The translations under genes were made by a program, and so were the position numbers. This document shows positions 52,135 through 59,634 of a DNA stretch of 64,000 bases, one piece after another. Position 1 is the first letter of the stretch. Each line of letters begins with the position of its first letter. The notes beneath the pieces are model-generated. The model was not told the origin of the DNA. It was given only the letters and a program-made list of their open reading frames with translations, and searched no databases. Source of the DNA: the human T2T-CHM13v2.0 reference genome, Homo sapiens. The stretch lies in NCBI RefSeq assembly GCF_009914755.1, contig NC_060931.1, one strand, 5' to 3'.

Positions 52135-54710
52135 TCACTTTTTTTGATTTCCTTTTTTTCTGTGTTTCATTTCGGGTGATTTTCATTGCTATGTCTTCAT
52201 ATATCCTAACCTTTTCTTCTTTAATGTGTATTCTGCCATTAATCTCATCCAGTGTGGTTTTCATCTCAGGCATTGTAGTTTTCATCTCTAGAGTTATATT
52301 TGGGTCTTTTTGTATCTTATATATCTATGCTTAACATACTCATTCTTCCCCCTAGCTTCCTGAGCATATGAAATGCTGTTATAATTACCTTCCTAATATC
52401 CTCATTTGGTCATTTTAATGTGGGTGTCAATTCTATTTCCATTTCAAGTGATTAATTTTTCTCCTTATTATGGATGATGTTTTCTTGCCTCTTTGTATGT
52501 ATGGTAATTTTAAATTATACATCATTTGATTTTGTTGGGTGCAGGATATTTGAGTATCTTTACACATATTTTTGAGCCTTGTTTGGGTTGTGGTTCAATT
52601 CATTTTGTTCTTGCTTTTATCAATTGTTGAGCTTGCTTAGAGCAGAGTTCAGTCTATGGCTGATTATTCACCAGTATTAAAGAAGACCCTTCTGATTACT
52701 CTACCCCAGGCTCCATGAATTATGAGTTTTTTCAGTCTGCCTGGTGGAAATACACACTATTCCCAGCCCCATGTGAGCTCTAACTACTGTTCTCACTCAC
52801 CTTTTCAAGTAGCTCTTTCCTTTGCCTCTGGTAGTTTCTTCAGAAGCATGTGCTGATCAGTACTCAGCTGAATATTCACAGCAGAGGGTACTCTACGTAT
52901 CTCTAGAGTTCTTTCTCTGTGCTGTCTACTTCCTGGTACTATCTTGTGTATGCTAGCCACTGTGGTCTCCCCAGACTCACAGCTTTGTCTCCTTAACACA
53001 AGGATTCTGCTGAGCTGCACTTGGGTTCTCCCTTTCTACACTGAAACCTGGAAGCACTTTTAAGTCAGTAAAACTGGGTTAATTGTAGGACTCACCTCAT
53101 TAGTTTCCCATCTCTTAGAGGTTTCTGGTTTGGGGTTTTTGTTTGTTTGTTAGTTTGTTTTCCCTAATGTTCAGTATCCTGAAAAGTTATTGTTTTATAT
53201 ATATTTTTTTCTATTTCTTATGTTACTATATCAGAGAAGAGAGTAAATTTGTTTTCTATTCCTCCAACTTTGATGAGAACATTGCAAGATTTTAAGGAGG
53301 AAATAACCTGATGGATTTAGAGAAGCATCCAGCCTACAGTATGGAGAATGCTGAGCTCTAGGCAGAGAGAGACAAATGAGAAAGCTGCTGGCCATCAACC
53401 AGGTGAGAAAGCCTGTGTGCTATAGATTGTGTCATCCTGCTTTCCCAGTTATTGACAGTCACCATGATGTGGAGAGGAGGGGGAGGGAGAGAGAGACAGA
53501 GAGAGAGAGATACAGAGAGAAGTTTGATAGGTAATATATAAAAGCGAAATGAACAGAAATTTGTATGGAAAAATTTCATAGTTTAACTTTATGTTGCAAA
53601 AATATATCTACACTTTATTCTGCACATCTTTAATGTATTTCCTCCACCTACTACTTGTTCACAAGGATCTGAAAGACATCACTCCTCATACCAAGCAGAT
53701 GAATAAAAAGAACACTCAGAAAATATATGGATATATGTACAGATAATGAGTTTTTTATTTTCCAAATATTAGACAAGATGGGAATGGAAAGGCAGTTGCC
53801 TAGAATGTGTGTGTTGTGGGTGGAGTGTGTGTGTAGTGAGACGGAGGTTGCTGTGTATGACTCAAAACGAAAAAGCAGTGGAACAGCTAGGTTCCGGGAA
53901 GAGTGGAGGGGAATCAGAATCTTCTCTTTCAAGGATCAGGGCAGAGGGTGGGTGGTAGGGGGTGTGTAAGGGATTTAACACTTGAACTGTCCTAGAGCAT
54001 GAGTTTCACTGAACCACTGCCTACAGACAATGTACCAACCAAGTACCCTGCCATTTTTAAGATCCTGGCAGAGAGTTAAAAATATGGGCAACTTAGATGG
54101 AATTGGAGTTGTGAAGAAAACACTTTGCCCCATTTCAGAGTTGGAATTAGCTCGAACCAACTGGACCTTCCTTCATGTGCTATACCACTACTGCATCTTA
54201 TTACATCTTGTGCTACTACCTATCTGTCTCTCCTCTCTTGGTCCTCCTCAAAAACACCTCATTGCTTTCCTGAAATTTCCATCTTCTTTAATACCAAATG
54301 CTGCTCACAGGAAGCAGTGAAAAGGACTAATAATGCAGTTACCCTAGTTAGACTATGACAGCAATATAGAATAATTCATAAAAAATTGAAGGTCATAATT
54401 ATTAAAAGAGAACTAGGAAAACATAATGACTAGAAACTTTTTTCTATCATTATATTTACATTTGACATTCCTTGGAACACATTCTGAATTCTATATCCCT
54501 TGATCTATACCTTCTTTCCACTGTAGTTCAAAGTCTTATACATGAAAGTTCTTGGTAAATGTTGACAGACACTTATGGAATGGCTTAAGTGAAGCTCTTA
54601 ACATGTCAAAGCCCCATTTTACCTCTGTAAAATTATTCTCTTAACTAATTCTATCCACTGTTTTTTTTAGAAACATAGTATATGCATACTACCTTAAAAA
54701 TGAAATCCTG

Positions 54711-55003
54711 GGCCAGGCATAGTGGCTCATGCCTGTAATCCCAGCACTTTGGGAGGCCAAGGTGGGTGGATCGACTGAGGTCAGGAGTTCAAGAGCAGCC
54801 TGGCCAACATGGTGAAACCCCGTCTCTACTAAAAATACAAACATTAGCTGGACATGGTGGTGCATGCCTGTAATCCCAGCTACTCAGGAGGCCGAGGCAC
54901 AAAAATCACTTGAATCTGGGAGGCGGAGGTTACAGTGAGCTGAGATCGCGACACTGCACTCCAGCCTGGGTGACAGAGTGAGACTGTCTCAAAAAAAAAA
55001 AAA
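54711..55003 (+). mobile_element. AluSx-like element whose 3' TSD is split by the L1-SSU72L insertion
   Basis: Dimeric Alu. The 5' flank is TT|AAAAATGAAATCCTG, and the matching GAAATCCTG appears at 59183-59191 rather than after the Alu tail. Confidence 0.95.
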
Positions 55004-55021
55004 GAAATATATATATATATA

Positions 55022-56385
55022 TACCAATGGAACAGAACAGAGCCCTCAGAAATAATGCCACATATCTACAACTATCTGATCTTTGACAAACCTGACAAAA
55101 ACAAGAAATGGGGAAAGGATTCCCTATTTAATAAACGGTGCTGGGAAAACAGGCTAGCCATAGGTAGAAAGCTGAAACTGGATCCCTTCCTTACACCTTA
55201 TACAAAAATTAATTCAAGATAGATTAAGGACTTAAATGTTAGACCTAAAACCATGAAAACCCTAGAAGAAAACCTAGGCAATACCATTCAGGACATAGGC
55301 ATGGGCAAGGACTTCATGTCTAAAACACCAAAAGCAATGGCAATGAAAGCCAAAATTGACAAATGGGATGTAATTAAACTAAAGAGCTTCTGCACAGCAA
55401 AAGAAACTACCATCAGAGTGAACAGGCAACTTACAGAATGGGAGAAAATTTTTGCAACCTACTCGTCTGACAAAGGGCTAATATCCAGAATCTACAATGA
55501 ACTCAAACAAATTTACAAGAAAAAACAAACAACCCCATCAAAAAGTGGGCAAAGGATATGAACAGACACTTCTCAAAAGAAGACATTTATGCAGCCAAAA
55601 GACACATGAAAAAATGCTCATCATCACTGGCCATCAGAGAAATGCAAATCAAAAGCACAATGAGATACCATCTCACACCAGTTAGAATGGCGATCATTAA
55701 AAAGTCAGGAAACAACAGGTGCTGGAGAGGATGTGGAGAAATAGGAACACTTTTACACTGTTGGTGGGACTGTAAACTAGTTCAACCATTGTGGAAGTCA
55801 GTGTGGCGATTCCTCAGGGATCTAGAACTAGAAATACCATTTGACCCAGCCATTCCATTACTGGGTATATACCCAAAGGATTATAAATCATGCTGCTATA
55901 AAGACACATGCACGCGTATGTTTATTGTGGCACTATTCACAATAGCAAAGACTTGGAACCAACCCAAATGTCCAACAATGATAGACTGGATTAAGAAAAT
56001 GTGGCATATATACACCATGGAATATTATGCAGCCATAAAAAATGATGAGTTCATGTCCTTTGTAGGGACATGGATGAAGCTGGAAACCATCATTCTCAGC
56101 AAACTATTGCGAGGACAAAATACCAAACACTGCATGTTCTCACTCATAGGTGGGAATTGAACAATGAGAACACATGGACACAGGAAGGGGAACATCACAC
56201 ACCAGGGACTGTTGTGGGGTCGGGGGAGGGGGGAGGGATAGCATTAGGAGAGATACCTAATGTTAAATGACGAGTTAATTGGTGCAGCACAATAACATGG
56301 CACATGTATACACATGTAAGAAACCTGCATATTGTGCACATGTACCCTAAAACTTAAAGTATAATATTAATAAAATTTAAAAAAA
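55022..56385 (+). mobile_element. 5'-truncated L1PA4-like element (ORF2 C-terminus plus 3' UTR)
   Basis: ORFs 55253-55561 and 55558-56160 are the L1 ORF2 C-terminus. The 3' UTR ends CTTAAAGTATAATATTAATAAAA. Confidence 0.97.
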
Positions 56386-58473: not shown

Positions 58474-59008
58474 AGATCTGGGCTGGCTTTGTCTCCTTCC
58501 TCGGTAAGAACTTAGGCATGGGACTTTAGTCCAGATTGATTGTGAGAAGTATCTACAAAGACCTTCCACTGAGTGCTGTTTGTATTACTTTTGTACATAT
58601 CACCTGGAAAGAGACTATTACCAAGAAAATATTTTATGGGAAATGAGAAGGACTAACAGTTTTAAAAGCACTGAAAAATGCTTGGCATTGTTCTACATGC
58701 ATTACATACAATAACTAATTTAATGCTTATATTATTCTACAAGGAAGCTATCCCACCATGACTGCATTTTCCGGATGAGCAAATGGAGCTGATAATGGAC
58801 TGCTGGAAAAATGATTTGTTTAAGGGTATTCAGCAGATAAATAACATTGTATAGATAAGCACCTTTTAAATAGACTTCCTTTTCTCAATTTGAGTGGTTT
58901 TTTTTTTAATTTTTAAATTTTTTAAGTTATTTGAGACCAATGGAGTGTGGTATATTAACTTAAATGTTGTTCTTCTTTAATAAGAGTATAATATTACATG
59001 TTTGAACC

Positions 59009-59178
59009 AATAAATGTTTTCACATATAGATTATATCTTTTTTACTAATGCTCACTTTAATAGGTAAAATCCAAGTTGGATAATGAACTACATATTATTG
59101 TAAAATTTGGAATTATCTACTCAAATAATAGGTCATCAAATTAAATGAAATAAAAAATTTAAATAAAAAAAAAAAAAA
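59009..59178 (+). terminator. Poly(A) signals and genomic poly(A) tail of the SSU72L cassette
   Basis: AATAAA at 59009-59014, 59149-59154 and 59162-59167. A-run at 59165-59178, then the TSD. Confidence 0.75.
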
Positions 59179-59634
59179 GAAAGAAATCCTGTTCCCAGGA
59201 TCTGCAAAGAACACCACAGCAGTTCTACACATCTGCCTCTCCCCCAGTTCCCCTCCCTGGATGGCAGAGATTTTAATATCATTAAAACTAACTTGGATAT
59301 AGTAGAGGGAAGCTCTTAAAACCCTGACACCAGTGTGGTAGGAGATGGTACGTCAATTGACAGATTCGTTACCCAAGAAGAACGTATACATGCATCATGC
59401 TAGGTACAGGGAGAAAACCAAAGTTAGGCAAAGTATTTTGTCCACTTATTATCTATGTCATTTTCATAGCCAGTAGAACCTCTCAGTAAGTCTCCTAGAC
59501 CTGGCCATGCCCACCATGGCCCAACACTCTCTTCGTCCCTGTCAACTCAAGCCTCTCTACGTACCCTCTACTGGGTCAGACCAGTGACAGATCCATTCCA
59601 GTGAGTTGAACAGCAGAACCAAAGGATGGCATTT

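What the first reader, a model, noticed from the sequence alone, without database searches (positions are those of the whole stretch)
54696..59191. Whole SSU72-like gene, with its promoter, apparently delivered as an L1 3' transduction
Seen: the AluS at 54711 is preceded by TT|AAAAATGAAATCCTG. Its tail is followed only by AAAGAAAT (55001-55008), then (AT)n and a 5'-truncated L1. The complete partner AAAGAAATCCTG appears 4.2 kb later (59180-59191), directly after AATAAA and an A-run. No AAAGAAAT follows the L1's own 3' end (~56385). Inference: one target-primed reverse transcription event (TSD ~AAAGAAAT) inserted L1 3' end + 2.8 kb of read-through flank (older AluS, promoter, ORF, 3' UTR) + poly(A) into the Alu tail. 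An AluS, which is older than L1PA4, inside the cassette fits carriage from a donor locus. Established: L1 3' transduction is known, but movement of an intact gene with 1.5 kb of upstream regulatory DNA is rare. This would be a second-generation retrogene that was expressible on arrival. From memory the donor would be the SSU72-like cluster at 11p15.4.
Basis: partly seen in the sequence, partly recalled or inferred. Interest (0 to 1): 0.9.

Follow-up and report, generated by a model that had tools for sequence, protein, structure and literature searches.

The report
SSU72L6 carried by L1 transduction
The human gene SSU72L6 on chromosome 7 sits, with about 1.4 kb of its upstream DNA, inside a single jumping-gene insertion that copied it from the SSU72-like cluster on chromosome 11, a known but rarely documented way of duplicating a whole gene.

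Summary
An Alu (54711-55003) has its 5' target-site duplication (TSD), AAAAATGAAATCCTG, intact. Its 3' TSD is split: GAAAT at 55004-55008, and GAAATCCTG only at 59183-59191. Between them lies one 4.17-kb insert (55009-59179) flanked by AAAGAAAT. It consists of (AT)n, a 5'-truncated young L1 (55024-56385), 2,783 bp of non-L1 DNA (56387-59169) and poly(A).

A search of the whole CHM13 genome finds that 2.78 kb at six other places, all chr11:4.297-4.406 Mb (92-93% identity). The homology starts one base after the L1 tail and stops at the poly(A) site. The chr11 copies continue there in mutually conserved DNA, while chr7 has A's. Both chr7 flanks are single copy. An inner Alu and the upstream phylogeny tie chr7 to the A/B/C chr11 lineage.

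L1 3' transduction is the best reading (about 0.75). No L1 abuts any of the six chr11 copies, so the donor element is missing from this genome and a template-switch chimera is not excluded.

All seven ORFs are intact (194 aa, Pfam Ssu72). dN/dS between chr7 and chr11 is 0.28-0.39. Promoter activity was not tested.

This is a new example of a known mechanism. No paper on this gene's origin was found.

The parts
54696..54710 (+). 5' target-site duplication of the host Alu (AAAAATGAAATCCTG), preceded by TT, which gives a TT|AAAA endonuclease site
   Evidence: GAAATCCTG at 54702-54710 is one of only two copies in the window
54711..55003 (+). Full-length Alu with a 13-A tail (54991-55003). It is the older element into whose tail/TSD junction the insert went
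   Evidence: aligns along its length to many ~300-bp Alu copies on chr11. The S subfamily label was not tested
55001..55008 (+). Left copy of the TSD of the 4.17-kb insert (AAAGAAAT). GAAAT (55004-55008) is also the first half of the Alu's interrupted 3' TSD
55009..55023 (+). (AT)n at the 5' junction. Another L1 reads ...GATCTAGACCAATGG here, so part of it may be L1 sequence or microhomology expanded by slippage
55024..56385 (+). 5'-truncated young L1: 1.36 kb of 3' end, collinear, with its own AATAAA at 56369 and a 7-A tail at 56379-56385. No L1 promoter is left
   Evidence: 39 other genomic L1 copies at 94-95% identity over the full length; terminal branch 0.0245
56387..59169 (+). 2,783-bp stretch copied from a chr11 SSU72L unit (the transduced sequence): 1,448 bp upstream DNA, 5' UTR, CDS and 3' UTR
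   Evidence: homology to six chr11 copies confined to these bases; 93.1-93.4% to A, B, C and 91.6-92.2% to D, E, F
56542..56839 (+). Inner Alu with an 18-A tail, carried inside the copied stretch. It is shared with chr11 copies A, B, C and absent from D, E, F, which show a clean empty site
56896..57018 (+). First copy of a ~124-bp direct repeat private to SSU72L units
57599..57722 (+). Second copy of that direct repeat, ending about 110 bp before the annotated transcription start
57835..59182 (+). SSU72L6 transcript as annotated by RefSeq (single exon)
   Evidence: hub annotation in the finding; not tested here
57889..58473 (+). Intact 194-codon ORF plus stop. It is a full-length Pfam Ssu72 match and aligns without gaps to human SSU72
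59162..59178 (+). Last AATAAA (59162-59167) and the A-run. Bases 59170-59178 have no counterpart in the chr11 copies, so they are non-templated poly(A)
59180..59191 (+). Right copy of the insert's TSD (AAAGAAAT, 59180-59187) followed by CCTG. GAAATCCTG (59183-59191) completes the Alu's 3' TSD

Best explanation
One L1-driven retrotransposition event (target-primed reverse transcription) placed a 4.17-kb cDNA into the junction between an older Alu's A-tail and that Alu's 3' TSD on chr7.

The RNA was a read-through transcript of a young L1. That L1 had inserted 1,448 bp upstream of the transcription start of one SSU72L unit of the chr11 (11p15.4) cluster, in the lineage that carries the inner Alu (copies A, B, C).

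Transcription ran past the L1's own AATAAA and five further AATAAA/ATTAAA hexamers. It ended at the SSU72L gene's own poly(A) site. Reverse transcription stopped inside L1 ORF2, so only 1.36 kb of L1 remains.

The result is a complete intronless SSU72-like gene with 1.45 kb of its native upstream DNA at a new chromosomal site. The gene is itself an old retrocopy of the five-exon SSU72 on chr1.

Shown: the nested TSD structure, the limits of homology, the poly(A), the chr11 origin and lineage, and the intact and constrained ORF.

Inferred: the donor L1 (no longer present in this genome), the read-through transcript, and that the carried upstream DNA acts as the promoter.
For: 1. The TSD flanks the composite, not the L1. 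AAAGAAAT lies at 55001-55008 and 59180-59187 and nowhere between. No repeat beyond A-runs flanks the L1 alone, the copied stretch alone or the gene alone.
2. Removing 55009-59187 restores the Alu's TSD: AAAAATGAAATCCTG against AAAAAAGAAATCCTG, 14 of 15, with the last 9 exact.
3. The order is L1 3' end with its own AATAAA and short A-tail, then unique DNA, then AATAAA and poly(A), all on one strand.
4. The unique DNA has 6 paralogs, all in chr11:4.297-4.406 Mb. Homology begins at 56387, two bases after the L1 tail's last A (56385), and ends at 59169.
5. At the 3' edge all six chr11 copies read ...AAATAAAAA then G/C-TATATTCTTATTTCTG..., conserved among themselves. Chr7 reads A's there. Chr7 is therefore the RNA-derived copy and chr11 the genomic source.
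6. Chr7 flanks 54250-54710 and 59188-59620 are single copy.
7. The inner Alu is shared with A, B, C only. The ML tree of upstream DNA gives the split DEF | chr7+ABC with 100/100 support. Site patterns: chr7=ABC at 53 sites, chr7=DEF at 16.
8. The ages agree. The L1 terminal branch is 0.0245 (15 three-point estimates). The chr7 branch of the copied DNA is 0.033-0.036.
9. The L1 8.7 kb upstream of A, B, C is not the donor. It is 92.8% identical against 94-95% for 39 other genomic L1s, and it has its own tail and different flank.
Against: - No L1 abuts the homology start in any of the 6 chr11 copies. They read ...GCCATGTAAGA|ATCACC with an Alu tail about 40 bp upstream.
- No seventh copy of the first 150 bp exists in CHM13 (where only 40 of 531 first-look candidates were scored). 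The donor is hypothetical.
- One base (C, 56386) between the L1 tail and the start of homology is unexplained.
- The transcript must have passed three AATAAA and two ATTAAA hexamers inside the copied DNA.
- The L1 branch (0.0245) is somewhat shorter than the chr7 branch of the copied DNA (0.033-0.036). This fits if the donor copy had already diverged from A/B/C before the event. It is also what a biased choice of nearest L1 neighbours would give.
- No outgroup genome was available, so the date and the empty site are untested.
Confidence: 0.75

Rival explanations
1. Template-switch chimera. L1 reverse transcriptase first copied a long polyadenylated chr11 transcript that covered the SSU72L unit. 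At the position equivalent to 56387 it jumped to the 3' end of an L1 RNA and copied 1.36 kb of that. This is one insertion event and one TSD, but there was never a donor L1 beside the gene.
For: It gives the same single TSD, poly(A) and homology limits. It explains directly why 0 of 6 chr11 copies have an abutting L1. The stray C at 56386 could be a junction base.
Against: The order is the reverse of the chimeras I recall being described, which have the L1 or Alu part at the 3' end and a full-length small RNA or mRNA at the 5' end. That is recalled, not checked in a paper here. The model needs a transcript reaching at least 1,448 bp upstream of the annotated start with no known promoter. An L1 RNA tail copied from its end would be expected to leave more than 7 A's. 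L1-tail-flank-poly(A) is the textbook transduction layout.
Confidence: 0.13
2. Two separate insertions. A retrocopy of a long chr11 transcript landed first with TSD AAAGAAAT. An L1 later landed exactly at its 5' junction.
For: None beyond the missing donor L1.
Against: The L1 alone has no TSD. The 25 nt left of 55008 or 55023 and the 25 nt right of the L1 tail share only A-runs of 5-7 nt. The L1 would have had to hit the exact junction base. The L1 and the copied DNA have similar branch lengths.
Confidence: 0.04
3. DNA-level (segmental) duplication or gene conversion moved the block from chr11 to chr7.
For: The chr11 cluster is itself a set of DNA-level duplicates with ongoing gene conversion.
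Against: Homology stops exactly at a poly(A) site and chr7 has non-templated A's there. TSDs flank the insert. Both chr7 flanks are single copy.
Confidence: 0.01
4. The host Alu is part of the same retrotransposed block. On this view the whole of 54711-59182 is one insert flanked by GAAATCCTG.
For: GAAATCCTG flanks 54711-59182 exactly.
Against: It leaves the internal AAAGAAAT at 55001-55008 unexplained. It needs a donor in which a full-length Alu, (AT)n and a truncated L1 already preceded the gene. No chr11 copy has that. A full-length Alu starting at its first base next to a TT|AAAA site is the mark of the Alu's own insertion.
Confidence: 0.02

Closest known systems
L1 3' transduction (Moran et al. 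1999; Goodier et al. 2000; Pickeral et al. 2000; cited from the reference list and introduction passages of PMC9311842; the original papers were not read)
   Same: An L1 3' end with its own tail, then unique flanking DNA from another locus, then a second poly(A), with one TSD around the whole. The element is 5'-truncated.
   Different: The cargo is a complete annotated protein-coding gene with 1.45 kb of upstream DNA, rather than anonymous flank or single exons. The donor L1 is not present in the genome examined.
SVA-mediated transduction of AMAC1 (Xing et al. 2006, PNAS; seen only as a table row in PMC3123540, and as a reference in PMC9311842; the paper itself is not held)
   Same: A non-LTR retrotransposon's read-through transcript duplicated a whole gene to new loci. 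I recall that it was an intronless gene with its promoter.
   Different: The carrier here is L1, not SVA. There is a single offspring copy. By divergence the event is older than the African great ape date given for the AMAC genes in the PMC3123540 table. The cargo is itself a retrogene.
Ordinary processed retrogenes / gene retrocopies (for example the NUKU family, abstract of PMC8496227; GRIPs in PMC4862182)
   Same: Intronless, with poly(A) and a TSD, made by the L1 machinery.
   Different: An ordinary retrocopy starts at the mRNA 5' end and lacks the promoter. Here the copy begins 1,448 bp upstream of the transcription start and is fused to an L1 3' end.
L1 template-switch chimeric retrocopies (U6-L1 type; recalled, no paper read here)
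   Same: Two RNA-derived parts inside one TSD with one terminal poly(A).
   Different: The order of the parts is reversed: L1 lies 5' and is truncated. The 3' part is not a known mature RNA.

Membership tests
L1 3' transduction event | L1 3' end (own poly(A) signal and tail) on the 5' side, same strand as the rest | tested here: met
   55024-56385 is collinear with 39 other genomic L1 3' ends at 94-95% identity. AATAAA lies at 56369 and a 7-A tail at 56379-56385.
L1 3' transduction event | Non-L1 DNA directly after the L1 tail, ending in a poly(A) signal and a second, non-templated poly(A) | tested here: met
   56387-59169. AATAAA lies at 59149 and 59162. The A's at 59170-59178 are absent from all 6 chr11 copies.
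L1 3' transduction event | One TSD flanks the L1 plus the flank, and none flanks the L1 alone | tested here: met
   AAAGAAAT at 55001 and 59180. The Alu TSD is restored when the insert is removed. Only A-runs are shared around the L1 alone.
L1 3' transduction event | The transduced DNA maps to another locus, with homology ending at the polyadenylation site | tested here: met
   Six chr11 copies with homology over 56387-59169 only. The chr11 sequence continues past the site.
L1 3' transduction event | Corroborating rather than defining: an L1 sits directly upstream of the source sequence at the donor locus | tested here: inconclusive
   0 of 6 chr11 copies have an abutting L1 and there is no seventh copy in CHM13. 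Only one genome was searched. An old donor may have been lost or never fixed.
Processed retrogene of SSU72 | Intronless copy of a multi-exon parent | tested here: met
   The SSU72L6 protein matches chr1:976573-1009063 in 5 separate pieces, but matches each SSU72L locus in one uninterrupted 194-aa stretch. Nucleotide homology to the parent is confined to the CDS, 72-81%.
Processed retrogene of SSU72 | Own poly(A) tail and TSD of the primary retrocopy on chr11 | not tested
   No UTR homology to the parent was detectable, so the limits of the primary retrocopy were not defined.
Ssu72 CTD phosphatase family (Pfam PF04722) | Full-length match above the curated cut-off | tested here: met
   283.4 bits against a cut-off of 25.3, profile positions 1-189 of 189. 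Gapless 194-aa alignment to human SSU72, PDB 3O2S, E 3.6e-92.
Ssu72 CTD phosphatase family (Pfam PF04722) | Catalytic C-x5-R loop and the downstream Asp (which residues are catalytic is recalled, not taken from a call) | tested here: met
   VCVSNINRS aligns to VCSSNQNRS, and NMDIKD to NVDIQD. Enzyme activity was not tested.
Segmental duplication | Paralogy continues beyond the unit into both flanks, with no poly(A) or TSD | tested here: not met
   The flanks are single copy. Poly(A) and TSD are present.
Template-switch chimeric retrocopy | The 5' part is a complete copy of another cellular RNA and the 3' part is the primed L1, Alu or mRNA (definition recalled) | tested here: inconclusive
   The 5' part is a truncated L1. 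The 3' part starts 1,448 bp upstream of the annotated start (and the hub annotation). No transcript data are on hand.

The most novel reading that the evidence does not exclude
SSU72L6 is a working CTD-phosphatase paralog created by L1 (not SVA) 3' transduction of a retrogene together with its own promoter. It would then be a human RefSeq protein-coding gene whose chromosomal location, regulatory DNA and independence from the chr11 cluster's gene conversion all stem from one L1 read-through event. It has been kept under purifying selection since (dN/dS about 0.3), while its donor element has vanished.
Probability: 0.45. Interest if true: 0.65.

Novelty: new member of a known kind. Interest (0 to 1): 0.55.

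Why it matters
Retrocopies normally arrive without a promoter. That is the main barrier to their becoming genes. Transduction by a retrotransposon is the one RNA-based route that can carry a gene's upstream DNA along. The example I know from the literature is SVA with AMAC1.

Here an annotated human protein-coding gene shows the full structural signature of the L1 version of that route. The source cluster is still present for comparison.

The chr7 copy also serves as a time-stamped outgroup that escaped the gene conversion homogenising the six chr11 copies. It can therefore be used to date and polarise changes in the SSU72L family.

I found no paper describing the origin of SSU72L6. Supplements and subscription journals were not covered.

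Tried and rejected
- The L1 8.7 kb upstream of chr11 copies A, B, C, on the same strand, was tested as donor and rejected. It is 92.8% identical against 94-95% for 39 other L1s, and it has its own tail and an unrelated flank.
- The older L1 3' end 1.8 kb upstream of A, B, C was rejected. It is only 84% identical.
- A search for a seventh copy or sibling transduction with 56378-56537 found only chr7 and the six chr11 copies for the unique part. The other 33 rows hit only the last ~55 bp, which belongs to an old interspersed repeat.
- The exact-word TSD test proved uninformative for AAAGAAAT, because A-rich words are commonly shared between A-run ends (44 of 210 pairs).
- I tried to show that the old repeat runs continuously across the chr11 junction, which would argue against a natural RNA start there. 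Only the 59-bp core aligned, so this is inconclusive.
- UTR homology to parent SSU72 or to the chrX copy, which would define the primary retrocopy's limits, was not found beyond the CDS.
- Xing 2006 and Szak 2003 are not held. A look-up of Pickeral 2000 failed on a term-length error and was not repeated.
- The 124-bp direct repeat upstream of the gene was tested as a possible interspersed repeat or LTR. It occurs only inside SSU72L units.

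
Full report
**1. What is in the sequence**

Reading 54500-59500 gives this order on the + strand:

- TT|AAAAATGAAATCCTG (54694-54710)
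- a full-length Alu (54711 onward) with a 13-A tail (54991-55003)
- GAAAT (55004-55008)
- (AT)n to 55023
- L1 sequence 55024-56385, ending ...TTAATAAAATTTAAAAAAA
- C at 56386
- 2,783 bp of non-L1 DNA (56387-59169), holding a second Alu (about 56542-56839), 1 kb of unique DNA, and the SSU72L6 transcript (57835-59182 by the hub annotation; ORF 57889-58473)
- AATAAA at 59162, A's to 59178, G at 59179
- AAAGAAAT (59180-59187), then CCTG TTCCC...

**2. Is the flanking repeat more than chance?**

AAAGAAAT is common: 22 copies in the window on both strands. A-rich words of 8 nt or more are shared by 44 of 210 pairs of A-run ends under the same search rule. On its own it proves little.

The informative word is GAAATCCTG. 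It occurs twice in the window. That count is not itself significant, since 21 of 100 shuffles reach 2. The positions are what matter:

- One copy ends at the base before the Alu.
- The other begins 4 nt after the terminal A-run.

A TSD has to abut the 5' end of its element. The Alu's TSD therefore ends in ...GAAATCCTG, and its 3' partner must contain CCTG. After the Alu tail only GAAAT is present. The complete partner lies 4.17 kb further on.

Deleting 55009-59187 restores AAAAAAGAAATCCTG against AAAAATGAAATCCTG (14 of 15). So 55009-59179 is one insert with TSD AAAGAAAT. Eight nt is the minimum, because the A's to its left are ambiguous and a second register, AAAAAAGAAA, is possible.

No comparable repeat flanks the L1 alone, the non-L1 part alone or the gene alone. 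Only A-runs of 5-8 nt are shared there.

**3. Where the non-L1 part came from**

A search of the window's own genome (CHM13) with 56386-59165 found six paralogs, all on chr11 between 4.297 and 4.406 Mb. That is the region a recent paper gives for SSU72L1-5 (PMC13732488, passages).

blastn of 53000-61000 against 140 kb of that region shows:

- homology only over 56387-59169;
- 93.1-93.4% identity for copies A, B, C;
- 91.6-92.2% identity for D, E, F, which lack the inner Alu.

One search shows the two edges:

- At the 3' edge every chr11 copy reads ...AAATGTAAATAAAAA and then continues in DNA conserved among all six. Chr7 has A's there.
- At the 5' edge every chr11 copy reads ...GCCATGTAAGA|ATCACCTTAAGAGGG. 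Chr7 reads L1 tail-C|ATCACCTTAAGAGGG.

Both chr7 flanks (54250-54710 and 59188-59620) are single copy. Chr7 is therefore an RNA-derived copy of a chr11-type unit, not a segmental duplicate.

**4. Which chr11 lineage, and when**

The inner Alu is present in chr7, A, B and C. D, E and F have a clean empty site.

In the upstream DNA, divergences are:

- chr7 to A/B/C: 5.5-6.0%
- chr7 to D/E/F: 9.2-10.6%
- A to D: 8.6-10.6%

The ML tree separates D, E, F from chr7+(A,(B,C)) with 100/100 support. The chr7 tip is 0.036.

Over the CDS and 3' UTR the six chr11 copies are nearly identical (A-D 0.9% and 1.6%). Chr7 is 3.9-4.3% and 5.6-6.4% from all of them. This indicates gene conversion within the cluster that the chr7 copy escaped.

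The L1 fragment has 39 genomic relatives at 94-95% identity. Three-point estimates with six of those 39 give it a terminal branch of 0.0245 (15 pairs, range 0.0221-0.0277).

The two clocks are of the same order. At the 0.17%/Myr I recall being used for L1 dating, they suggest roughly 15-20 Myr. I did not test the labels L1PA4 or AluS.

**5. The missing donor**

Transduction predicts an L1 directly upstream of the source. None of the 6 chr11 copies has one.

- The first 150 bp of the copied DNA has no seventh copy in CHM13.
- The same-strand L1 8.7 kb upstream of A, B, C is only 92.8% identical and has its own tail and flank.
- An older L1 end 1.8 kb upstream is 84% identical.

The donor is therefore inferred. 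It may have been lost, never fixed, or erased by rearrangement or conversion in this unstable cluster.

**6. Mechanism and rivals**

The layout is L1 3' end with tail, then foreign flank ending at a real poly(A) site, then poly(A), all inside one TSD. That is the defining layout of L1 3' transduction. I put it at 0.75.

- A template-switch chimera (0.13) needs no donor L1 and is not excluded. It does require a long unannotated transcript, and the order of parts is opposite to the chimeras I recall.
- Two independent insertions (0.04), a block that includes the host Alu (0.02) and DNA-level duplication (0.01) each leave observed features unexplained.

The read-through RNA passed the L1's own AATAAA (56369) and five further AATAAA/ATTAAA hexamers before the cluster at 59140-59167.

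**7. The cargo**

All seven loci have intact 194-codon frames. The parent SSU72 on chr1 matches in five separate pieces. Nucleotide homology to it is limited to the CDS at 72-81%. The family is therefore an old retrocopy, and the chr7 gene a copy of a retrocopy.

SSU72L6 is a full-length Pfam Ssu72 match (283 bits). It aligns without gaps to human SSU72. The C-x5-R loop and the Asp that I recall as catalytic are kept.

Against the chr11 copies it has 10-11 synonymous and 12-15 non-synonymous differences, giving dN/dS of 0.28-0.39. Under neutrality so few non-synonymous changes have P of 0.004-0.027. The test cannot say which branch is constrained.

The L1 fragment has no promoter. Any expression must therefore come from the 1,448 bp carried along or from local DNA. 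That region is AT-rich and CpG-poor. Its promoter activity was not tested.

**8. Comparison with what is known**

3' transduction by L1 and SVA, including exon shuffling and gene duplication, is established (PMC9311842, abstract and introduction passages). The whole-gene precedent I know is SVA with AMAC1. I saw it only as a table row and a reference, because the paper is not held.

Searches for SSU72L6, SSU72 with retrogene, SSU72P/SSU72L, and SSU72 with LINE-1 and transduction found nothing on the origin of this gene. The only SSU72L papers were:

- an HGNC note on renaming from pseudogene to gene;
- a T2T transposon survey that mentions SVA_B copies in the chr11 cluster.

Supplementary tables and subscription journals were not covered. 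Early genome-wide transduction lists could therefore contain the locus without my seeing it.

**9. Verdict**

It is a clean, well-bounded new example of a known mechanism carrying an unusually complete cargo. The donor element is missing, and promoter function and the primate empty site are untested.

Noticed in passing
chr11 loci L009-L022 (G000:C11:4285001-4425000): The six chr11 SSU72L units form three tail-to-tail inverted pairs, each with about 6.8 kb between the 3' ends: D+/F-, A+/B- and E+/C-. The third pair mixes the Alu-less and Alu-bearing upstream lineages.
   Followed up: no
window 57835-59169 versus the chr11 copies: The CDS and 3' UTR of the six chr11 copies are homogenised (A-D 0.9% and 1.6%), while their upstream DNA differs by 8.6-10.6%. 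This points to gene conversion limited to the gene body. The chr7 copy escaped it.
   Followed up: partly
L030 (G000:C23:112798712-112799287): A further intronless SSU72-like open frame lies on chrX, with 63% protein identity to SSU72L6 and no stops. By eye it is closer to parent SSU72.
   Followed up: no
window 56896-57018 and 57599-57722: A 124-bp direct repeat (84-86% identity, 704 bp apart) lies upstream of the gene. It is found only inside SSU72L units: 14 genome hits, which is 7 loci times 2. The second copy ends about 110 bp before the annotated start.
   Followed up: partly
window 56480-56537: The 55-60 bp before the inner Alu are the best-conserved core of an old interspersed repeat (531 first-look candidates, 91-96% identity). 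The inner Alu inserted into it. The family was not identified.
   Followed up: partly
chr11 copies A, E, F, about 90 bp beyond the poly(A) site: The last ~98 nt of the 3' UTR (window 59066-59163) recur at 85-88% identity just downstream of the poly(A) site in three chr11 copies. This is a local duplication that the chr7 copy lacks, because the RNA ended at the first site.
   Followed up: no
window 44266-49156 (- strand): A long L1 elsewhere in the window is 93% identical to the L1 at chr11:4328689-4333571. It is unrelated to the finding.
   Followed up: no
window 56386: A single C lies between the L1's 7-A tail and the first base homologous to chr11. It could be a tail mutation, a remnant of the donor L1's TSD, or an untemplated base.
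   Followed up: no
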